This document shows, piece after piece, positions 29,296 through 39,224 of a stretch of 64,000 bases of DNA. Positions within the stretch are counted from its first letter, which is position 1; each line of letters starts with the position of its first letter. The position numbers and the translations under genes are program-made. The notes under the pieces are model-generated. The model made no database searches and was not told the origin of the DNA. It saw only the letters and a list, made by a program, of their open reading frames with translations. Source of the DNA: a virus; the IMG/VR virus record IMGVR_UViG_3300027804_000050, positions 32,001-96,000 of that record. One strand, given 5' to 3'.

Positions 29296-31788
29296 ATGGA
29301 TTACTTAAGCCAATTATTAGAAAGCTACGATAAGCTCAAGAAAAGAAAATTTAAATTAGTTTACATTGAAGAAGCGGCTGTTCAATTAGATCCTGAAGCT
29401 CAAAAAAAAGTAGACACTTATATTGCAACTGCACAATCAAAAGCTGAAGTACCTTCTCCTGATAATAAAACTCCAGTAGTAGAAGTTCCAGAAAGTAATG
29501 TTTGGGTAGCTAAAGAAGGTAAGACTGCGGGACAAGTTGTGTTTGATGGATTCCCCGGTCCAAGAAAAGGAAAAGCTTTTGCTTTGTCAGGGTCATCTAA
29601 TGCAAAACAAAATTATAATGATTTTGTTAAATTATTATCAGGCCAACAATCCGATTCGCAACAACAAGCTAGTGCAGAGGATCAAACTGTAGCAACTCCT
29701 ATTGTTCCTGAAGTTCCACAAATAGACGATATTTCTGCCGATACTCTTCAAAATTCTTTTAATGCTTTAAAAAATTATTGTAGAGATAATAATTATAATT
29801 CTCCAATATGTAAAGAAAAAGGTTTTGGAAAAACAAGCACATCTACAGGAAATATTTTTACAGGTAAAGATTCGACAAGTGTATACGGAAGATTAGCTTT
29901 AGGAGCGCGAATAGTGTATGATCCTGTTCAACAGGGTTTAGTACAACAAAAATTAGATGATGCTAATATAGATATTGCAACTGAAGCATATAGAAAATTA
30001 GTGGATGCTGCAATAAAAAAAGAAAATAGTTGTGAAGATTTTACAAAATCAATTGGATTAATTTATGGCAAGGATGGAGAAACTTTATCAAAAATTCTAC
30101 TAAAAACAAATTCAGGAGATGATGCTGAAGGAGTTTTGGTTAAAGCAGGCGCATATGAAACGGCTTTGCTTTCAATGGCTCATAAAAATTGTACCTCTGC
30201 TAAAAGAAAACAAAGAACAACTTTATCAATTGTGCAAGATGGATCTAAGAGCCAAATAAAAGGATCTTTATCTGAAGCAACTGTAGATTTTCATTATCTA
30301 ATGTTACGATATAAATCAAATATTTCATTAAAAGAAAAAGAAGACATTAGAAAATTCATGGCTCAATATCTACAAGATAAAATTTTTACCATACAAAAAT
30401 TAGCTCAAGATTTAAGTAATATAGAAGAAACTGCTACTGATGTTGAAACTACTTTTATGAATGAAGTATTACAAGAAGAAGCTTTAAAATCTTCTAATAC
30501 ATTAGAACTACAGAAATTTTTAGCAAGAGAATTATTTTACCAAAGAAAAATAATAAATGATTTTTTCCCTAACGCAGTTTGTGCTTTCAATTCTGCTGAA
30601 GCTGGTCCACCAAAAACAGGAGAAAGACCTGATAGACAATTTATCTACACCTCAAAACAGTTAGCCATACAAGATTTCTTACAAAGAAATCCTAATTCTG
30701 TAGCAGAGGAAGTTGAACTAGAAGAAGTTACTTTGCGACAATTGAGACAAGTAATAAAAGCTAGATGTGGTGGAGATCCTAATTGTAAATCTCAAAAAGA
30801 TTTTGATGCAATGCTTAGGTCTGGTGGTCTTTATGAAGCTGGTGATTCAACCAAAGTTTTTTTTATCTCTGCTGGATTAAAGAGATATTCGCAATTAGAT
30901 CACATTACATTAGGCACAGTAGCAAGTACAAATAGAATGGATGATTTATTTACTCCAAATTATACTGGAGATTCTCAACTTTCTGAAGGATTTTTAGATT
31001 TAGTAGATCGAAGATTAGAATTAGATTCAACTTCTTATGAAAGTATGATGGCTTTCCATGAAGATTCAAAAAAAGAAAGAAAAACTATTGAATCAACTAT
31101 AACATCAAATTACACTGTAGATACAGGAAAAAAACCTGATTTAGCAGATCCTATTCAAGTAATAAAAAGAGTATCAAGTATCATAGGAGAAAAAACTTTA
31201 AAAACAAATGAGTATGCTTCAGAAATTTTAAAGCTAACGGAAAAGGCTACAAAACTAAAAAAAGATTCAGAGGGTAATATCATTGATAAAACTTCTGTTA
31301 TACCTAGATTAAGCCATAAACTAGTAAAATTTAAATTAATTAATAAACTTCAGAACTCTTTGAGTTCAATGAATTTAAAAGAGAAAAAAGCTTGTGAAGA
31401 CTATTTATTGAGACAATTATTAATTACTGGATCTACAAAAGATTCGAATATGTATCAAACAATTATACCAGATAATGGGAAAAGTTCAGTCATAAGACAT
31501 AACGAAATTTTTGATACCATTTTAACATCTAGAAAAAAAGGTAAATTAAAAATAGAAGTAACTGGATCGGGAGCTAGATTTATTGATGCAGAGTCCAATC
31601 TATTTATAGACTTGAATATGAGCACTTCTGGAAAAGATGGAATTAGTTTTAAAGCTAAACTAAATAAAAATACAATAGAAAAATTAAATAAAATTCAACC
31701 AACACAAGTTAGTGAACAAGAACAATTAGAATTATTCAAAGAATTTTTTAAGATACAAGAAAAGATATTAAAATCAATTAATCAATAA
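29296..31788 (+). CDS. Large hypothetical protein, possibly head-packaged
   Basis: 830-aa ORF; N-terminal QLLES...YIEE motif. Confidence 0.55.
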   Translation: MDYLSQLLESYDKLKKRKFKLVYIEEAAVQLDPEAQKKVDTYIATAQSKAEVPSPDNKTPVVEVPESNVWVAKEGKTAGQVVFDGFPGPRKGKAFALSGSSNAKQNYNDFVKLLSGQQSDSQQQASAEDQTVATPIVPEVPQIDDISADTLQNSFNALKNYCRDNNYNSPICKEKGFGKTSTSTGNIFTGKDSTSVYGRLALGARIVYDPVQQGLVQQKLDDANIDIATEAYRKLVDAAIKKENSCEDFTKSIGLIYGKDGETLSKILLKTNSGDDAEGVLVKAGAYETALLSMAHKNCTSAKRKQRTTLSIVQDGSKSQIKGSLSEATVDFHYLMLRYKSNISLKEKEDIRKFMAQYLQDKIFTIQKLAQDLSNIEETATDVETTFMNEVLQEEALKSSNTLELQKFLARELFYQRKIINDFFPNAVCAFNSAEAGPPKTGERPDRQFIYTSKQLAIQDFLQRNPNSVAEEVELEEVTLRQLRQVIKARCGGDPNCKSQKDFDAMLRSGGLYEAGDSTKVFFISAGLKRYSQLDHITLGTVASTNRMDDLFTPNYTGDSQLSEGFLDLVDRRLELDSTSYESMMAFHEDSKKERKTIESTITSNYTVDTGKKPDLADPIQVIKRVSSIIGEKTLKTNEYASEILKLTEKATKLKKDSEGNIIDKTSVIPRLSHKLVKFKLINKLQNSLSSMNLKEKKACEDYLLRQLLITGSTKDSNMYQTIIPDNGKSSVIRHNEIFDTILTSRKKGKLKIEVTGSGARFIDAESNLFIDLNMSTSGKDGISFKAKLNKNTIEKLNKIQPTQVSEQEQLELFKEFFKIQEKILKSINQ

Positions 31789-32293
31789 ATATATTATCTG
31801 GATATTTTAATATTTCATCTAGTAAATTTATCTCATACTGCTCAAACCCTATGGTATTATAGAGTCTGGGCAGTATGTTTTTTTTCGAGATTGTTACTGT
31901 AGGTTGTCTATCTTGTTGAAAAATAATTATAAAATCTTTTTTAGCATTTACAGAATCTCTTTCAGCTTTTATTATAAAATCCCATAATTCTGAACTCTTA
32001 TTAAATAGACTACTAATACTTACTTTGTTATATCCTTTTTTACACTCAATGATATATTTAAATTTTAAAGGAGTAATCAAATCGCCATAAACTTTCAGAT
32101 GATCTGGAAGACTGTGTGTGGTGGCGAAGGCTCCCGAACCCGGAGTTCTGGCAAACTCTATTGTATTGAATCTATCATTAAGTAGGGAACATATTTTTCT
32201 TTCAAATGTGTTTCCCTTGGAGCGGCTGTTAATCTTTTTCTTTTTGGAAAGTTTTTCTTTAATCAAATTTAAATCATAGGAATCTTGTAACAT
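31778..32293 (-). CDS. Holliday junction resolvase (PD-(D/E)XK)
   Basis: NSRSKGNTFER, RTPGSGA, GDL, IECK motifs. Confidence 0.8.
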   Translation of the reverse strand: MLQDSYDLNLIKEKLSKKKKINSRSKGNTFERKICSLLNDRFNTIEFARTPGSGAFATTHSLPDHLKVYGDLITPLKFKYIIECKKGYNKVSISSLFNKSSELWDFIIKAERDSVNAKKDFIIIFQQDRQPTVTISKKNILPRLYNTIGFEQYEINLLDEILKYPDNIFID

Positions 32294-32699: not shown

Positions 32700-33017
32700 A
32701 TGTTTAAACTCACTTTTCTGAGTAAGGAAAACGACCTTAACAAAGTACTCAGAAATCAAAAGAGAGACAGGAATACAATCAATTTATTGTTTGTATCCTT
32801 GTGGGACGAGCATTGCAACATTCTCCTTGATAAGTTGAAGGAGAAGTACAAGGATGATTTTGGAGAGGAAATTTTTGTCGTAGATAGCTTTCACATGCCT
32901 CATAGTTTTGTAATTTATGAAGTTGTGAAGGTTCCTCAACTAGTGGTTGTAGGCAAGGTGCATACTCAGATCGAAGAGTACTTACCTAAGATTTATGATT
33001 ACTTCCGTCTGGAGTGA
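32700..33017 (+). CDS. Thioredoxin-fold protein lacking canonical CxxC (WDEHC)
   Basis: LLFVSLWDEHC...YEVVKVPQLVV matches Trx topology including cis-Pro motif. Confidence 0.6.
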   Translation: MFKLTFLSKENDLNKVLRNQKRDRNTINLLFVSLWDEHCNILLDKLKEKYKDDFGEEIFVVDSFHMPHSFVIYEVVKVPQLVVVGKVHTQIEEYLPKIYDYFRLE

Positions 33018-33354
33018 TATCCTCTGTCTTAGAATCAATGTAATTCTTAATCTTTGTTTCATATCGTTTGTTTTTTGTATAAAGTAACTTCAAATTATGA
33101 ATAATAATTGTAGTGAAATAATTAAAAGCTGTACCTTTACTGTGGTTAAAGTTTGGTAGAGTTTTTAATATCAACAAAAAACAATCTTGCTTGGCATCAT
33201 CCTTGTCAAGTTTAAACTTAAAGGATTCTATAATGTTCTCCACGAGTATGTCGAACATCTTAATAAGTTCGGCTTCGTGAGCTTTAGGGTCCTTTTTGTA
33301 TTTTTTAATTAACTTTTCGAAATCCTTGTTATTTATATAATTTTTCTGACTCAT
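32986..33354 (-). CDS. gp55: Late-transcription sigma factor (T4 gp55-like)
   Basis: NYINNKDF, QDC, NF...KGTAFNYFTTI motifs. Confidence 0.75.
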   Translation of the reverse strand: MSQKNYINNKDFEKLIKKYKKDPKAHEAELIKMFDILVENIIESFKFKLDKDDAKQDCFLLILKTLPNFNHSKGTAFNYFTTIIIHNLKLLYTKNKRYETKIKNYIDSKTEDITPDGSNHKS

Positions 33355-33370
33355 AGCCTATCATACCTAT
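33355..33370. promoter_or_regulatory. Putative bidirectional leaderless promoter
   Basis: TATCAT (+) and TATGAT (-) overlap; each lies 5-6 nt from an ATG. Confidence 0.5.
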
Positions 33371-34393
33371 ATGGATCTAGAAAGACTGTATAAGGGTCTG
33401 GTTATTGCTCCAGATAACCCTCTTTGCTCAGGCTGTGTCATTTTGACTAAGACAAAGCCTTGCTATGCTGTTTTAGATTATGAACAGCAGGATCAATCCG
33501 ATGTCCTATTCCTATCTGATTCATTAAAGTCCAGATTTGGAAAGACTTATGCATTTACTGATGCAGAAGAAGAGATAATCAAACAAATTTTTAATAAACC
33601 GTTCGCCACGGCTGCTTCTGTTAAGTGCCCTTCTGTTAAAGAAGGCGATATGAATCCAGCCAGCATGAATGCTTGTCGCAATCATCTTAACGCCACTATA
33701 GATAAAATTAAACCAAAGTTGGTTTATGCTTGTGGCAACCTTGCCATGAAGATGTTAATTAAGAAAAGTGGCATAACAGATAAGAGGGGTAATTCCTACG
33801 ACTTCGAAACTCCTAATGGGCATAAGTGTGTGGTAGTTCCTATCCTACATCCTTATGCCATTATTCAAGAACCTAGGCACAAGCCAGTTTTTGAAACTGA
33901 TATAGCTAATGGATATAACAAACATATCTTGGGGAATGTTAAGCAAACTAAGATGGATTATACTTTGGTTGAATCCATAGCATCCCTGACAGATTTTTGT
34001 TATTGGCTAAAGAAATACGAAAAACCTATTGCTGTAGATATCGAAACCACTGGGCTAGACTTTCTGAAGGATAGCATTATGACAATTGCTATTGCTACAG
34101 ATGAGCGTTCTGCCGTAATCCCTATTCATCATAAGGAACACGATTGGTCCAAAGTATCTGATTATGTTGATCATGCTGAAATCTATGATCTAATCAGGTA
34201 CGGTTTGAATAGCAAAGCAATTAAAGTTTTACACAATGCAAAGTTCGATCTCAAGTTCATGAAGAAGTGTGGTATTAATTTTGGTCCTATTGCGGATACT
34301 AAAATGATGGCTCACATGGTAAATGAAGAGGGTAAGAATTCCTTGAAGGATCTTGTCAAGCAATATTTCCCTGAGTACTTGGAGAAACTCTAA
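33371..34393 (+). CDS. polA: DNA polymerase A part 1: family-4 UDG-like domain plus 3'-5' exonuclease N-part
   Basis: CxxC...VKC...C...HP; AVDIETTGL (ExoI); HNAKFD (ExoII). Confidence 0.85.
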   Translation: MDLERLYKGLVIAPDNPLCSGCVILTKTKPCYAVLDYEQQDQSDVLFLSDSLKSRFGKTYAFTDAEEEIIKQIFNKPFATAASVKCPSVKEGDMNPASMNACRNHLNATIDKIKPKLVYACGNLAMKMLIKKSGITDKRGNSYDFETPNGHKCVVVPILHPYAIIQEPRHKPVFETDIANGYNKHILGNVKQTKMDYTLVESIASLTDFCYWLKKYEKPIAVDIETTGLDFLKDSIMTIAIATDERSAVIPIHHKEHDWSKVSDYVDHAEIYDLIRYGLNSKAIKVLHNAKFDLKFMKKCGINFGPIADTKMMAHMVNEEGKNSLKDLVKQYFPEYLEKL

Positions 34394-34887
34394 TGCTTGG
34401 TATTGAAAACCCTAATAAGTTTGATTGGGCCAACATATCTTTGTCTGCTTGTGCTAATGGAAATTATGCAGACGCACACTACACTTTGCAAATTTATCAT
34501 ATCTTGTATGAAAGAATGCAGGAACTGGGGATGACTAAATTATATGATAATGTAATCTCCCCTGCGATCAATGAGTTTGCAGATATAGAATATCATGGCA
34601 TCAATGTATCCACTAATAAATTAAATGAGGTTGGTAAAGTTCTTCGTGATGCTAACATTGAAGCAGAGGATTTCTTGTACACTTGTAAAGGTGTGCAAAA
34701 AACAGACAACCTATCCTCTAATAATGATCTAATCGAAGTTATGTATACACGAGAAGGCGGGTTGGAGTTGTATCCACCTGATAAGACTGCAAAAGGATCC
34801 CCTTCTGTCTCTGCCCCAACATTAACAATCCTACTAGACTTTATTAATCAGGAGCTAGAATCCCGTGGCAAAGTGGAAAAATCGTGA
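34393..34887 (+). CDS. polA: DNA polymerase A part 2: ExoIII plus thumb N-part
   Basis: ADAHYTLQIY; IEYHGINV; NLSS; KTAKGSPSV. Confidence 0.8.
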   Translation: MLGIENPNKFDWANISLSACANGNYADAHYTLQIYHILYERMQELGMTKLYDNVISPAINEFADIEYHGINVSTNKLNEVGKVLRDANIEAEDFLYTCKGVQKTDNLSSNNDLIEVMYTREGGLELYPPDKTAKGSPSVSAPTLTILLDFINQELESRGKVEKS

Positions 34888-35977
34888 AGAAAATAAGGAT
34901 ATCGCCAAGTCGGTTGTCTCCCACAAGACAATTGAACAATTGCGTGAATCCAAAAAGTTTATTGAAGGATTGCTTGAACTACGCAAGTCTGAAAAGTTGG
35001 AAAAGACTTACATTCAAGGAACTAAATCTGCCATTGAATACAATGGTAACAATAAAGTTTATGTAGACTTCCGTTTTGATGGGACCGCCACAGGGCGGTT
35101 ATCTTGTGCTGCGTATTCTGCAAAGGAAGATATGGGGGTATCTTTCCATACTTTGCCTAGAGATACTAAGCATAATATTAGATCCATATTTGTAGCTCCT
35201 AAAGGTCATGCTTTTATCACCGTGGACTATGCAGCCATGGAACTTAGAGTTCTAGCTCATATTGCCAAGGAAAAGATTATGCAAAAAGCATTCATTGATG
35301 GGGCTGACCTGCATACTTACACAGCCGAGCTACTCTTTAATAAAAAGACCATCAGCAAGGAAGAGCGTCAGATTGCAAAGACTGTATCCTTCTTGATTGT
35401 ATATGGTGGAGGTGCCTTTAATCTTTCAGAAACAATGGGTATCCCCATGAAGAGGGCAGAAAAGATTATCGAAAACTACAGGAAAGTGTACCCCGGTATT
35501 TTCTCTTACATGGAGCATGTAAACAGATTCATTAGAGAAAATCATTATGCTTATACCATCTTCGGTCGCCGTAGAAATCTTCCTGATGTAACTTCAGAAG
35601 ACCAGACCGTAGTCAATAGAGCACTTCGTCAAGGACTAAATTTTACAATTCAAAGCACAGCATCAGATATACTTCTATGTGGATTGCTAGGCTGCTGCAA
35701 GGAGTTTAGCAAAAAAGGATTCCTAGCTCGTCCAGTAGCTACGGTGCATGACAGCTTGGAGGTAATTTGTCCTTTTAATGAAGTAGAACAAGTTTTGGAA
35801 ATTATCCATGAACAACTTGTGAATGTGCCTATAATAAAGCAAGTGTTCAATCTTGAGTTTTCTGTGCCTCTTAAGATTGATGCTGAGGTAGGTCATTCGT
35901 TCGGGGATGGCAAAGAAGTTCACTATCTTAATGGCAAGGTACAGAACATAACTGAAATCCTAGACTATATAAAATGA
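34865..35977 (+). CDS. polA: DNA polymerase A part 3: palm and fingers
   Basis: TATGRLS, DYAAMELR (A), RQIAKTVSFLIVYG (B), VHDS (C); AGGAG 10 nt before GTG. Confidence 0.92.
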   Translation: MAKWKNREENKDIAKSVVSHKTIEQLRESKKFIEGLLELRKSEKLEKTYIQGTKSAIEYNGNNKVYVDFRFDGTATGRLSCAAYSAKEDMGVSFHTLPRDTKHNIRSIFVAPKGHAFITVDYAAMELRVLAHIAKEKIMQKAFIDGADLHTYTAELLFNKKTISKEERQIAKTVSFLIVYGGGAFNLSETMGIPMKRAEKIIENYRKVYPGIFSYMEHVNRFIRENHYAYTIFGRRRNLPDVTSEDQTVVNRALRQGLNFTIQSTASDILLCGLLGCCKEFSKKGFLARPVATVHDSLEVICPFNEVEQVLEIIHEQLVNVPIIKQVFNLEFSVPLKIDAEVGHSFGDGKEVHYLNGKVQNITEILDYIK

Positions 35978-36654
35978 GAGTTGATTGTTTAGATAAAGGA
36001 TATGTTGAGTTAATTACTCATACAGAAAAGGGGGATTTACTTGTCGTTAACGCTGCTAGATGTTCCTTTGATAAAGAACATAAAGAATTTGATAATGAAA
36101 GAGATATTAAACTTATCTCTTATCTTGCACGGCATGGGCATCTTTTACCCTTCAGACATCCCCACGCAACTTTCCGTATCCACTGCCCTATTTTTGTCCT
36201 TCGCCAGTTAGGCAAGCATCAAGTAGGTTTTAGTTGGTCAGAAGTTTCCAGAAGGTATATAACTACGGAGCCAGAGTTTCATGTACCAGAGAACTGGAGA
36301 TCTAAGGCTCCCAATGTAAAGCAGGGAAGTTCTGAAGAAATATCTTATTGGAGCAAAAACTGCAAGGATGATGCTAACTTTTTAATTAAAGATGCACTAT
36401 TCTATTACAATATGATGCTCAAAAATGGGGTTTGTCCTGAGCAAGCTAGAATGATTCTACCACAATCAATGTACACTACCACAGTCGTTACAGGTAGTCT
36501 TTTGGGGTGGCATCATTTATTTGATCAGAGGACAGATGCACACGCTCAAAAAGAAACCCAAGACTACGCCAAAGCTATTGGATTTATAATGAACAACATA
36601 TATCCTATTAGCTGGAAAGCCCTATGTGATGAAAAAAACGCAGATAATCGGTGA
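35974..36654 (+). CDS. thyX: Flavin-dependent thymidylate synthase
   Basis: VVNAARCSF, KHQVGFSWSEVSRRY, EQARMILPQ, HAQKE. Confidence 0.93.
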   Translation: MRVDCLDKGYVELITHTEKGDLLVVNAARCSFDKEHKEFDNERDIKLISYLARHGHLLPFRHPHATFRIHCPIFVLRQLGKHQVGFSWSEVSRRYITTEPEFHVPENWRSKAPNVKQGSSEEISYWSKNCKDDANFLIKDALFYYNMMLKNGVCPEQARMILPQSMYTTTVVTGSLLGWHHLFDQRTDAHAQKETQDYAKAIGFIMNNIYPISWKALCDEKNADNR

Positions 36655-37618
36655 TGTTCATCTTGATGATCGATACATAGGATATTTAGATTTTCAAGTA
36701 CAAACAATAAAAAAGATAATCGACTCAGAAAATTGCCAAGATATTATTTTTCTAGGAGATTTATTTGAAAAAAGATCTCCTAGTCCAAAAGTTTTACTAG
36801 CACTTCAAACTATTTTAGATTATATACCCAGAGATAAAAAAGTATATCTTCTAAGAGGTAACCATTGTTCGCAAACCAAAGCGGACGATGGTCTTACAGC
36901 ATTATCTTTGTTTGAATATAAAAGAAATGTTACTGTAATAAAACACACGAGATCTGTAAATGGCTATACTTTTATTCCTCATTACGAAAACGAAAGAACT
37001 ATTATCGAAGACCTTTCTAGGGTTCCTGATGCTGATATCGTTTTGGGGCATTTTGGCTTTAATGGTTGCCTTAATCCTATGGGGGACCCTGATTTTAATA
37101 TTTCAGTGGATATGTTTACCAATAGAACTTTTTTGGGGCACATTCATCACTATAAAGAAACAAAAGAAATCACAATAGTTGGAACGCCATACAGCACCTC
37201 ATTCCAAGAAGCAAACAAAGATAGTTACTATGCTGTAGTTGACACTAAGGGTAACTATAAGATGAAGCCTATAAATTTCGGTATTCGTCATTTGGTAATG
37301 GATTTGAGCGAAGTTGTACAGAACAAGGAATTTATCGAAAATGATAATTACTATACTATTTTGAGAGTAATGGTTAACACTTTGGATAAGGATCAAGATA
37401 ATTTACGAGAGATTCTAGACCAAGTAAGACCTATGCATATTGATATTAAATATAAGCCAATTGTGGACGAAAAGAAACCACAAAGCACTTATGATCCAGA
37501 ACAAATTATAACCAGAGTGGATGAAAATTTAATCCTAGACTACATAAACAATACCAATACAACTTTAAGCAAGCAGGAACTAATGGATGGTTTGAAGGTT
37601 ATAAATGAAAATCAATAG
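36626..37618 (+). CDS. SbcD/Mre11/gp47-like nuclease
   Basis: GDVH, GDLF, GNH, GHF, GHIH phosphoesterase motifs. Confidence 0.88.
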   Translation: MMKKTQIIGDVHLDDRYIGYLDFQVQTIKKIIDSENCQDIIFLGDLFEKRSPSPKVLLALQTILDYIPRDKKVYLLRGNHCSQTKADDGLTALSLFEYKRNVTVIKHTRSVNGYTFIPHYENERTIIEDLSRVPDADIVLGHFGFNGCLNPMGDPDFNISVDMFTNRTFLGHIHHYKETKEITIVGTPYSTSFQEANKDSYYAVVDTKGNYKMKPINFGIRHLVMDLSEVVQNKEFIENDNYYTILRVMVNTLDKDQDNLREILDQVRPMHIDIKYKPIVDEKKPQSTYDPEQIITRVDENLILDYINNTNTTLSKQELMDGLKVINENQ

Positions 37619-39224
37619 AATAGAAATAAAGAATTTCTATTCCATTCGTGACATCAAAATTAATTTTGATAATCACAGTGGGATAGTTTTAATTGAAGGT
37701 AAGAACAAGGACATTGGTGGGTCCAACGGATCTGGCAAGAGTTCCATAATCGAGGCTGTTGTATGGGGGATCTTTGGTAGAACGATTCGTAAATCTACCG
37801 AGGAAGCCCTGATCAATGTATACGATACTAAAAATTGCTCTGTTCAGATTACATTAAATAACAATATAACTATCCACCGGAGCAAGAAACCCACATTTCT
37901 TAAGTTTTTTGTGGGAGAAGAGGACAAGACTCAGGATAGCAGTTTAAAAACTCAAGAGCTTATAGAGAGTATTTTAAATAGTAACTATAAGACTTTCTTA
38001 GCATCAACTATTTTTGGACAACATAATAATGTTGATTTCATTGATGCTTCCCCAGAGGACAAGAGATTAATAATTAAGAATTTCTTAAATCTAGATGAGA
38101 TATTTAATAAAAGAGATTCTGTAAAAGATTTAAAATCTAATTATAATAATGAACTAAAGACTTTAGAAGCTTTAGCCTCTGACACTACCTCAAGTTTAAA
38201 TAAACTTTCTTCTAAGTTAAATGATATAGATGAAGGAGAAAGAAAATTTTTACAAGATAATGATTTAGAGGAAGATGATTTGCTGAAATATGATATTGAT
38301 AAAATTTTACGGTTAGAATCTGAAAGGGATGATTTGAATCGTAAAATCAAAGAAGAGGAAAAACTTATTTCACAAACTTTAAAGTCTATTGATATTTGTG
38401 AAAAAGAAATATCATCTTTAGAAAATAAAAAGATTTCTAAATGCCCAACCTGTGGTAATGAATCTAAGATAAATGTAAAAGAAAAAATAAAAAAATTACA
38501 AGGGGATCTTTATATTTACAAGAATGTTCACCATTTAGAACAAACAAAGTATCTTGCAGAATACAAAACTTCTTTATCTAAGATACACATACCCCTACCA
38601 TCATCTAAATATAAAATAATTAATGAGTGGAAGGATCTTAAATCTAAAAAAGATTATTTATTAGAATCTAAAAAGGAATTGGAGACTAAATTAGATGACT
38701 TGGCAAAAGATAAATCTAAACTTCTTCGTAGTTTAGAAGTGATGAAGTTTTGGGAAAAAGCATTTTCTGAAACAGGTTTAATTAAATACATTATAAGAAA
38801 CATCTTAAACTTCTTCAATGGAAAAGTAAATTATTACTTATCTTATCTTTCCAATGGTAAATTTATCATCAAATTTGACGAAGAATTAAATGAGAAAATC
38901 TATACAAATGGAAAACAATTGTCTTTTATATCCCTATCGGGTGGAGAAAAGCGCAAGATTAGCCTAGCTGTGATGCTGGGTCTTCAAAGCTTACTCACTA
39001 ATACAAAACGAGATAGCACTAACTTGATGTTTTTGGATGAAGTAGGTGAGAATTTAGATCAAGATGGTCTGGATGGACTCTACATACTTCTATCCGAATT
39101 GAAGAAAGATAAGACTTTATTCATAATAACACACAACAACTATCTTAAATCTTTAATTGATGGTTGCAAGGTGCTAACCGTAACAAAACAACATGGCGTG
39201 TCGTATCTTTCAAGGAGATCATAA
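37605..39224 (+). CDS. SbcC/Rad50/gp46-like ATPase
   Basis: NGSGKS, CPTC hook, LSGGE, LDE, ITH. Confidence 0.92.
   Translation: MKINRIEIKNFYSIRDIKINFDNHSGIVLIEGKNKDIGGSNGSGKSSIIEAVVWGIFGRTIRKSTEEALINVYDTKNCSVQITLNNNITIHRSKKPTFLKFFVGEEDKTQDSSLKTQELIESILNSNYKTFLASTIFGQHNNVDFIDASPEDKRLIIKNFLNLDEIFNKRDSVKDLKSNYNNELKTLEALASDTTSSLNKLSSKLNDIDEGERKFLQDNDLEEDDLLKYDIDKILRLESERDDLNRKIKEEEKLISQTLKSIDICEKEISSLENKKISKCPTCGNESKINVKEKIKKLQGDLYIYKNVHHLEQTKYLAEYKTSLSKIHIPLPSSKYKIINEWKDLKSKKDYLLESKKELETKLDDLAKDKSKLLRSLEVMKFWEKAFSETGLIKYIIRNILNFFNGKVNYYLSYLSNGKFIIKFDEELNEKIYTNGKQLSFISLSGGEKRKISLAVMLGLQSLLTNTKRDSTNLMFLDEVGENLDQDGLDGLYILLSELKKDKTLFIITHNNYLKSLIDGCKVLTVTKQHGVSYLSRRS

What the first reader, a model, noticed from the sequence alone, without database searches (positions are those of the whole stretch)
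33371..35977. Family A DNA polymerase built from three separate genes
Seen: PolA motifs are spread over three adjacent ORFs. The first break falls inside the 3'-5' exonuclease (ExoI/II in ORF1, ExoIII in ORF2) at a clean TAATG stop-start overlap. The second falls at the thumb tip, where ORF3 has its own AGGAG-N10-GTG start and both pieces carry extra residues absent from E. coli Pol I. There is no intron- or intein-sized spacer. Known: T4-like phages normally use PolB with a clamp. Inference: this is a heterotrimeric PolA replicase whose proofreading site is assembled in trans, not a pseudogene or assembly error.
Basis: partly seen in the sequence, partly recalled or inferred. Interest (0 to 1): 0.8.

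Follow-up and report, generated by a model that had tools for sequence, protein, structure and literature searches.

The report
Three-gene split family A DNA polymerase
This uncultured marine T4-like phage, like hundreds of relatives, encodes its only DNA polymerase as three separately translated genes cut inside the proofreading domain and at the thumb tip, so the enzyme most likely works as a three-subunit complex and is not a broken gene.

Summary
ORF1 (33371-34393) carries a UDG-like domain plus ExoI and ExoII. ORF2 (34393-34887) carries ExoIII plus the first half of the thumb. ORF3 (34865-35977, GTG start) carries the rest of the thumb plus motifs A, B and C. They lie in frames 2, 1 and 2.

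Both break points are kept exactly in every IMG/VR relative where the junction lies on the contig (45-98% identity). There are 261 stand-alone ORF2 protein clusters and 497 ORF1 clusters. At break 1 some relatives carry unrelated genes, one on the opposite strand, which rules out a frameshift or assembly error there. At break 2 AGGAG-N10-GTG is invariant.

All three ORFs are under strong purifying selection (dN/dS 0.02-0.09). This is the only polymerase found in the 95%-complete 106-kb genome.

New here: the fission was stepwise. Sister lineages (L026, L029, L030) have break 1 only. In a tree the three-part forms are one clade nested inside the two-part forms, next to contiguous UDG-PolAs. Break 2 maps to a loop in a lineage-specific thumb-tip insertion.

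A complex model supports assembly, but it may reflect likeness to solved one-chain enzymes. Nothing has been shown biochemically.

The scan found the same architecture before in another genome (e1-6017031). I rate it a new variant of a known kind (genes in pieces), of moderate to high interest.

The parts
33371..34393 (+). ORF1, 340 aa: UDG-like domain plus the N-terminal three quarters of the 3'-5' exonuclease domain
33425..33931 (+). Family-4-UDG-like domain (residues 19-187). The four Cys C19, C22, C86 and C102 are invariant in the close family. The GE(A/G)PG catalytic motif is replaced by LSDS, and HPY is kept
   Evidence: Pfam PF03167 E 3.9e-7; PDB 4zbx E 2.4e-13; invariant columns
33962..34369 (+). 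Exonuclease part 1 (Pfam exo1 model positions 2-128 of 173), with ExoI VDIETTGL at 34034-34057 and ExoII HNAKFDLKF at 34232-34258
34381..34395 (+). Junction 1: GGAG (34381-34384), 8 nt, then the TAATG stop/start overlap (34391-34395)
34393..34887 (+). ORF2, 164 aa, the bridging subunit: ExoIII segment GNYADAHYTLQ (34459-34491, D27 = Klenow D501), the N-terminal helices of the polymerase domain and the first half of the thumb
34850..34887 (+). Junction 2: AGGAG (34850-34854), 10 nt, GTG start of ORF3 (34865-34867), and a 23-nt ORF2/ORF3 overlap up to the ORF2 stop TGA (34885-34887)
34865..35977 (+). ORF3, 370 aa: second half of the thumb (helix I), palm and fingers; motif A DYAAMELR at 35225-35260, motif B RQIAKTVSFLIVYGG at 35366-35410, motif C VHDS at 35744-35761

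Best explanation
The three adjacent genes encode one UDG-exonuclease-polymerase enzyme of family A as three polypeptides. These are translated separately and most likely reassemble into the phage's replicative, proofreading DNA polymerase.

Shown by computation:
- The genes are distinct and the break points are conserved.
- Each downstream piece has its own start signal. ORF2 has GGAG-N8 in front of a TAATG overlap. ORF3 has an invariant AGGAG-N10-GTG, and the overlapping Arg codon is always CGT.
- All three pieces are under purifying selection.
- The catalytic carboxylates of the exonuclease are divided: D223, E225 and D293 in ORF1, D27 in ORF2.
- ORF2 alone spans the exonuclease/polymerase domain boundary.

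Inferred:
- The pieces are made from one transcript in near-equal amounts by translational coupling.
- ORF2 acts as a staple. Its N-terminal helix completes the exonuclease fold of ORF1, and its C-terminal helix packs against the N-terminal helices of ORF3 to complete the thumb.
- The complex polymerises and proofreads.
- The UDG-like domain is structural or base-sensing rather than a glycosylase, because its catalytic motif is lost while the four conserved cysteines that I read as Fe-S ligands are kept.

History (tree plus synteny): a one-chain UDG-PolA was first cut in the ExoII-ExoIII loop. That cut is ancestral to a large clade of ~100-120 kb marine myoviruses. Later, in one subclade, it was cut again in the loop of a lineage-specific thumb-tip insertion.
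For: - Breaks conserved: 23 IMG/VR loci at 45-98% identity keep the ORF arrangement, and every junction that lies on a contig is identical.
- Break 1 occurs in four states: a TAATG overlap; a 490-545 bp insert with a minus-strand gene; a ~190 bp insert with a 62-aa ORF; and a 92-aa ORF in L026.
- There are 261 stand-alone ORF2 clusters of 159-165 aa. There are 497 ORF1 clusters; the top 120 are 332-345 aa apart from one 213-aa fragment, and none is near 500 aa.
- In the profile search, stand-alone ORF2 proteins give way to 515-563 aa proteins that begin at the ORF2 N-terminus, and then to contiguous 809-869 aa enzymes.
- The genomic context of three two-part forms shows ORF1 just upstream in the same synteny.
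- Tree: split forms make one clade (100/100); three-part forms make one clade (100/99) with the two-part P0231 as sister (91/93); contiguous UDG-PolAs are the sister clade.
- dN/dS is 0.087, 0.017 and 0.041 for ORF1, ORF2 and ORF3. Between more distant pairs pN is 0.08-0.23 against a saturated pS of 0.71-0.86.
- It is the only polymerase detected: one PF00476 match and no PF00136 match in the 95%-complete genome.
- Complex model: score 0.91, best of 3 controls 0.69. That mark was reached by 58 of 80 solved complexes and 2 of 110 mismatched pairs. Runs agree in at least 89% of contacts and the partner's pLDDT is at least 84. ORF2 residues 23-39 touch ORF1 residues 219-228, 237-244, 286-295 and 305-317. 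ORF2 residues 141-158 touch ORF3 residues 17-46. This pass may come from likeness to solved one-chain PolA structures.
- In the AlphaFold2 model of the natural ORF2+3 fusion P0231, residues 1-45 (the ExoIII segment without ORF1) have pLDDT below 50. The site homologous to break 2 (residues 177/178) lies in a coil, 169-182, between two helices.
Against: - There is no biochemical, proteomic or transcript evidence.
- The complex prediction cannot separate true binding from memory of contiguous enzymes.
- The ExoIII tyrosine is missing (glycine at that position), and motif C reads HDS rather than HDE, so activity levels are unknown. Contiguous relatives share HDS or HDA.
- The 10-nt spacer between AGGAG and GTG is on the long side.
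- AGGAG also encodes a conserved Glu-Glu/Gln-Glu, so part of its conservation may be due to the protein.
- 'Two-part' status for P0253, P0259, P0270 and P0281 is inferred from the protein N-terminus alone.
Confidence: 0.8

Rival explanations
1. Recoding: a programmed frameshift or ribosomal bypass joins ORF2 to ORF3 (+1), or ORF1 to ORF2 (-1), so that one or two longer chains are made.
For: The frames differ by one base at both junctions and the ORFs overlap. A Shine-Dalgarno-like AGGAG upstream of a shift site is a feature of +1 frameshifting in prfB (my knowledge). T4 gene 60 shows that T4-like phages can bypass (my knowledge).
Against: At break 1 several lineages carry 190-545 bp, including an opposite-strand gene, between the pieces. 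The ORF2 frame is open for only 6 codons upstream of its ATG and holds no slippery heptamer. At break 2 the only place where a shift could occur is 2-8 codons long. Its sequence differs between lineages (GGG TAA, GAG TAA, GGC TAA, GGC AAA) and the position of the ORF2 stop moves, whereas GTG and the CGT codon are invariant. The ORF3 frame has a stop 3 codons upstream of GTG in most lineages.
Confidence: 0.04
2. Sequencing or assembly error, or a decaying pseudogene.
For: Single-base frame changes are the commonest assembly artefact, and no reads could be inspected.
Against: The same breaks appear in independent assemblies from many samples, with hundreds of protein clusters. dN/dS is 0.02-0.09 in every piece. 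It is the only polymerase found in the genome.
Confidence: 0.01
3. The pieces are real genes but no longer form one enzyme. For example, ORF3 (with or without ORF2) acts as an exonuclease-free polymerase, and ORF1 has drifted to another role as a UDG-like or nuclease-like accessory protein.
For: ORF3 holds all polymerase catalytic motifs. The UDG-like motif A is lost and the UDG cysteines are lost altogether in L029 and L030. The ExoIII tyrosine is absent.
Against: The four exonuclease carboxylates stay invariant across both chains. ORF1 lacks the last 45 positions of the exonuclease fold, and ORF2's first 45 residues model poorly without it. ORF3 lacks half of the thumb and the N-terminal helices of the polymerase domain. 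Gene order and tight coupling are conserved. In the control with ORF3 replaced, ORF2 still docks on ORF1 with a score of 0.69.
Confidence: 0.1
4. The pieces are joined after transcription or translation, by a group I or II intron or by a split intein.
For: SPO1-type phage PolA genes carry group I introns (cited in PMC2988022). Contiguous relatives P0252, P0256 and P0277 carry inteins with HNH or LAGLIDADG domains.
Against: The window has no spacer at either junction. There is no Rfam match at E<=0.1 in five loci, including those with inserts. The flanks align to Klenow without the ~100+35 aa that split inteins need. The inserts match no Pfam family above its cut-off.
Confidence: 0.01

Closest known systems
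Split exo|pol family A polymerase of S-SBP1-like T7-like cyanophages (Czernecki et al. 2023, PMC10201439)
   Same: A phage PolA encoded as separate adjacent genes. It arose by gene fission (a frameshift plus a new start) and is predicted to reassemble into the normal fold.
   Different: That split makes two pieces, cut at the boundary between the exonuclease and polymerase domains. Here there are three pieces and both cuts lie inside a domain: between ExoII and ExoIII, and at the thumb tip. The exonuclease active site is therefore composite. This enzyme also belongs to a different PolA clade, fused to a UDG-like domain.
UDG-fused PolAs: N4-like cluster 17 and SPO1, SP-10, SP-15 (PMC10201439)
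   Same: The domain order is family-4-UDG-like, then 3'-5' exonuclease, then polymerase. The nearest cultured matches of ORF1 are PolAs of SPO1-like Bacillus phages. The sister clade in the tree consists of one-chain UDG-PolAs.
   Different: Those enzymes are single polypeptides; this one is three. The UDG motif A is lost here while the four cysteines are kept.
Genes-in-pieces of T4-related phages: gp43 PolB split into 43A/43B in Aeromonas phages 25 and 44RR, and NrdA in Aeh1 (PMC2988022)
   Same: An essential replication enzyme of a T4-like phage is cut into separately translated chains. In those cases the chains co-purify and are active, and the break point can hold an inserted gene or an untranslated spacer.
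   Different: Those cases involve a family B polymerase or RNR, cut into two pieces, and the inserts are homing endonucleases. Here it is a family A polymerase in three pieces, and the inserts at break 1 match no nuclease family.
Split DNA polymerase of OM43 phages MEP401/MEP402 (PMC10580990)
   Same: [quoted passage not shown]
   Different: Those are podovirus-type genomes related to Zobellviridae, with two pieces. The break position was not compared here.

Membership tests
Family A DNA polymerase (PF00476) | Polymerase-domain profile match, with motif A (DYxxxELR), motif B (RxxxKxxxFxxxYG) and the motif C aspartate (HD) | tested here: met
   ORF3 scores E 8.6e-79 against PF00476 and E 7e-41 against Taq. 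Motifs were located. The second acidic residue of motif C is Ser, as in contiguous relatives.
Family A DNA polymerase (PF00476) | Complete polymerase domain on one polypeptide | tested here: not met
   Model positions 1-56 are missing from ORF3, and the corresponding helices are in ORF2.
DEDD 3'-5' exonuclease of PolA (PF01612) | Four carboxylates: ExoI DxE, ExoII D and ExoIII D | tested here: met
   D223, E225 and D293 are invariant in ORF1 and D27 is invariant in ORF2, but they lie on two chains.
DEDD 3'-5' exonuclease of PolA (PF01612) | ExoIII tyrosine (YxxxD, DEDDy type) | tested here: not met
   The position four residues before D27 is an invariant Gly23, followed by an invariant Asn24.
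Family 4 uracil-DNA glycosylase (PF03167) | Fold match and four Fe-S cysteines | tested here: met
   PF03167 scores 30.7 bits against a cut-off of 24.3. PDB 4zbx matches at E 2.4e-13. C19, C22, C86 and C102 are invariant. Assigning them as Fe-S ligands rests on my knowledge of family 4.
Family 4 uracil-DNA glycosylase (PF03167) | Catalytic motif A GE(A/G)PG | tested here: not met
   The corresponding segment reads FLSDSL in the family. The motif definition is from my knowledge and from PMC10201439.
S-SBP1-type split PolA | Cut at the exonuclease/polymerase domain boundary, giving two genes | tested here: not met
   The cuts fall near Klenow residue ~475 and near residues ~610-615, both inside domains, and there are three genes.
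Intein- or intron-interrupted polymerase gene | Intervening intein or ribozyme sequence | tested here: not met
   There is no spacer in the window, no Rfam hit and no Hint or intein domain in the three ORFs.

The most novel reading that the evidence does not exclude
The fission may be more than a neutral accident. The 18-kDa middle subunit could be an exchangeable staple that couples or uncouples proofreading from synthesis. The free, highly charged termini created at the thumb tip lie at the same site where T7 polymerase carries its thioredoxin-binding loop. They could serve as a docking site for DNA or for a processivity or helicase partner, which would give a clamp-less T4-like phage a new route to processive replication.
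Probability: 0.12. Interest if true: 0.8.

Novelty: new variant of a known kind. Interest (0 to 1): 0.58.

Why it matters
This is a natural, widely distributed case of a family A polymerase that tolerates two cuts inside its domains. One cut divides the exonuclease active site between two chains. The intermediate two-piece stage still exists in sister lineages.

- It gives a testable series for how multi-subunit enzymes arise by fission: one chain, then two, then three.
- It offers ready-made split points for engineering split Pol I-type enzymes.
- It warns annotation and PolA marker-gene surveys that these abundant marine phages will be scored as having truncated or broken polymerases.
- It shows a T4-type virion module paired with a SPO1-type UDG-PolA replicase and no PolB.

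Tried and rejected
- Megablast of the locus against GenBank phages found no match. tblastn of ORF2 found a single weak hit, so there is no cultured close relative.
- A word-based search for longer proteins containing ORF2 found none. The exhaustive profile search later found them, so one search was a sensitivity miss.
For P0253 this returned only an unrelated locus, L027.
No read-level check of the junctions and no RNA evidence were possible, and read laying was not used.
- The Rfam scan for introns found nothing.
- Pfam scans of the genes inserted at break 1 found nothing above cut-off, and no homing endonuclease.
- The promoter/terminator scan found no plus-strand sites inside 33371-35977, and counts were below the shuffled expectation. 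This is only weakly informative. The scan of the L005 insert found nothing.
- The literature search for 'split into three' returned only irrelevant hits. The paper on DNA polymerase swapping did not cover this case.
- I considered -1 frameshifting at TAATG and +1 frameshifting or bypass at junction 2, and rejected both for the reasons given under rival explanations.
Full report
**Observation.** The window is part of a 106,108-bp IMG/VR virus record, estimated 95% complete. They are in frames 2, 1 and 2.

- Pfam finds a UDG-superfamily domain and DNA_pol_A_exo1 in ORF1. The exonuclease match stops at model position 128 of 173.
- Pfam finds nothing in ORF2.
- Pfam finds DNA_pol_A model positions 57-380 of 381 in ORF3.
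- A profile of ORF2 homologues matches Klenow fragment chain residues 159-292 (E 2e-8). That covers the ExoIII helix, the start of the polymerase domain and the first thumb helices.
- ORF3 matches Taq and Klenow from the thumb's helix I to the C-terminus (E about 1e-40).

Junction 1 is TAATG (34391-34395) with GGAG 8 nt upstream. Junction 2 is AGGAG (34850-34854), 10 nt, then GTG (34865), with a 23-nt overlap of ORF2 and ORF3.

**The split is real.** A scan of IMG/VR with ORF3 returned 23 related loci at 69-98% identity.

- tblastn of all three pieces shows the same three-frame arrangement wherever the contig is long enough. ORF1 diverges down to 45% and ORF2 down to 51%.
- Junction 2 is nearly invariant. 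AGGAG-N10-GTG is present in every locus, and the ORF2 arginine codon that contains the GT of GTG is always CGT.
- The ORF2 stop lies 8 nt into ORF3 in most lineages. In the window's clade a T-to-A change has removed it and added five codons.
- Junction 1 exists in several states. It is the TAATG overlap in the window's clade and in L014, L015 and L022. It is a 490-545 bp insert carrying a 166-207 aa lipoprotein-like gene on the opposite strand in L005-L013. It is a ~190 bp insert with a 62-aa ORF in L018-L020.

An opposite-strand gene between the pieces cannot be reconciled with a frameshift, a sequencing error or ribosomal bypass. No intron family matches any of these loci, and the inserts match no Pfam family above cut-off.

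Protein searches show the scale. There are 261 clusters (at 90% identity) of stand-alone ORF2 proteins, 159-165 aa long, from JGI, ENA, Tara, Logan and NCBI. There are 497 clusters of ORF1; the best 120 are 332-345 aa apart from one 213-aa fragment, and none is the ~500 aa expected of an ORF1+ORF2 fusion.

**The pieces are under selection and are needed.** Between the window and its 98% relative L002, dN/dS is 0.087 for ORF1, 0.017 for ORF2 and 0.041 for ORF3. Between more distant pairs, synonymous sites are saturated (pS 0.71-0.86) while pN is 0.08-0.23. The genome has a single family A match and no family B polymerase.

The virion module is T4-like. It has a gp23-type capsid protein about 30% identical to those of cyanomyophages, a tail sheath, a tail tube and a prohead protease. 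The replication neighbours are ThyX, SbcD, SbcC, RNR and a DnaB-type helicase.

**Where the cuts fall.**

- Break 1 lies between ExoII and ExoIII. ORF1 residues 198-320 align to Klenow chain residues 7-129, and ORF2 position 8 aligns to chain residue 159. The cut therefore falls in the surface loop that precedes the ExoIII helix.
- D223, E225 (ExoI) and D293 (ExoII) are invariant in ORF1. D27 (ExoIII, aligned to Klenow D501) is invariant in ORF2. The metal-binding site can exist only if the two chains associate.
- The ExoIII tyrosine is not present. Its position is an invariant glycine followed by an invariant asparagine.
- Break 2 lies at the thumb tip. The C-terminus of ORF2 and the N-terminus of ORF3 both map to about Klenow chain residues 287-292. 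An alignment with relatives shows about 30 extra residues there.

**Stepwise origin (new in this follow-up).** An exhaustive profile search with ORF2 finds three tiers of hits.

1. Stand-alone proteins of 157-181 aa, down to E about 1e-20.
2. Proteins of 515-563 aa whose first residues are the ORF2 N-terminus (MLT...) and which continue without a break into the polymerase domain.
3. Contiguous UDG-exo-pol enzymes of 809-869 aa.

I fetched the genomic context for three of the 515-563 aa forms. L026, L029 and L030 show the same synteny as the window: PDDEXK nuclease, small genes, a divergent sigma-like gene, then ORF1 of 330-332 aa. Next comes either a 92-aa inserted ORF (L026), the same TAATG-type overlap (L029) or a 3-nt gap (L030). 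The fused ORF2+3 gene follows. These lineages therefore have break 1 but not break 2.

In L026 the thumb-tip insertion is present as continuous peptide. In an AlphaFold2 model of that protein (mean pLDDT 78), the site homologous to break 2 (residues 177/178) lies in a 14-residue coil between two helices. Its first 45 residues, the orphan ExoIII segment, are modelled with pLDDT below 50.

A maximum-likelihood tree of the polymerase domain (26 rows, LG+C20) gives the following:

- all split forms in one clade (100/100);
- the three-part forms in one clade (100/99), with the two-part L026 protein as sister (91/93);
- contiguous UDG-PolAs as the sister clade (100/99).

If the root lies among the Pol I-like rows, break 1 arose once and break 2 arose once later. 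The tree is drawn at midpoint, so the order of events rests on that assumption. For four of the 'two-part' rows, the status is inferred from the N-terminus alone.

Inteins with HNH or LAGLIDADG domains interrupt three contiguous relatives. This polymerase clade is therefore a frequent target of mobile elements, but none is present at the window's breaks.

**Assembly.** A three-chain model (ESMFold2, with my own alignments) scores 0.91 for ORF2 against the other two chains, and the best of 3 controls scores 0.69. That mark was reached by 58 of 80 solved complexes and 2 of 110 mismatched pairs. The runs agree in at least 89% of contacts, and the partner's pLDDT is at least 84.

- The best control kept ORF2 and ORF1 and replaced ORF3, so ORF2 still docks on ORF1.
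- ORF2 residues 23-39 touch ORF1 residues 219-228, 237-244, 286-295 and 305-317, which are the ExoI and ExoII elements.
- ORF2 residues 141-158 touch ORF3 residues 17-46.

Solved one-chain PolA structures resemble this complex. The pass therefore shows that the pieces still fit the canonical fold, not that they bind. Precedent from T4-related phages shows that split polymerases can work: the gp43 43A and 43B chains co-purify and are active (PMC2988022).

**Comparison with the known.** Czernecki et al. 2023 (PMC10201439) describe the exo|pol separation in S-SBP1-like T7-like phages as the first split PolA. They also describe UDG-PolA fusions (N4-like, SPO1). Split polymerases are also noted in OM43 phages (PMC10580990).

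I found no description of a three-gene PolA, or of a PolA cut inside the exonuclease domain. The library holds only open-access papers, so that absence is weak evidence.

The scan itself has met this architecture before in another genome (e1-6017021, and e1-6017031 with a follow-up report). My independent tests agree with that report and add the two-part intermediates and the order of events.

**Verdict.** The feature is real and conserved, and very probably a functional three-subunit UDG-like/exonuclease/polymerase. It is a new variant of the known genes-in-pieces phenomenon. I rate interest at about 0.58. The main open points are direct proof of assembly and activity, and whether the split has any functional meaning beyond neutral fission.

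Noticed in passing
window 32986-33370: A 122-aa gene on the minus strand has a weak Sigma70_r2 match (E 8.9e-5, below cut-off). It starts only 16 nt from the ORF1 start codon. This head-to-head pair with a 13-26 nt gap is conserved in L005, L009, L026, L029 and L030, so both promoters must lie inside the neighbour's coding sequence.
   Followed up: partly
L005 2949-3572 (-), L009 3005-3505 (-): The gene inserted at break 1 encodes a protein with an N-terminal lipoprotein-like signal (LSSC), a Gly/Ala-rich stretch, a hydrophobic segment and a charged C-terminus. It matches no Pfam family. It could be a spanin or an exclusion protein, which I read by eye only. In these loci ORF2 is preceded by TATAAT-like AT-rich sequence directly before its ATG and by no Shine-Dalgarno sequence.
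   Followed up: partly
L029 786-1781, L030 2505-3497: In the more distant two-part lineages the N-terminal ~190 aa of ORF1 no longer match UDG in Pfam, and the CxxC pair of the conserved cysteines is no longer recognisable. The domain has degenerated but its length is kept, which suggests a structural role.
   Followed up: partly
P0252, P0256, P0277 (contiguous UDG-PolA relatives): These contiguous relatives carry inteins with HNH or LAGLIDADG domains inserted in conserved polymerase motifs.
   Followed up: partly
window 35974-36654 and 36626-39224: ThyX overlaps the ORF3 stop (ATGA) and is followed by SbcD-like and SbcC-like genes. ThyX is absent at this position in L029 and L030, where SbcD follows the polymerase directly.
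   Followed up: no
window 31778-32293 (-): A phage PDDEXK endonuclease gene (PF24608, E 8.5e-23) is conserved at the same place upstream of the polymerase cluster in L026 and L030.
   Followed up: no
window 34459-34470 (ORF2 G23-N24): An invariant Gly-Asn replaces the ExoIII tyrosine in all split lineages examined. Contiguous relatives P0258 and P0263 keep a Tyr four residues before the Asp. I did not test whether Asn24 takes over the tyrosine's role.
   Followed up: no
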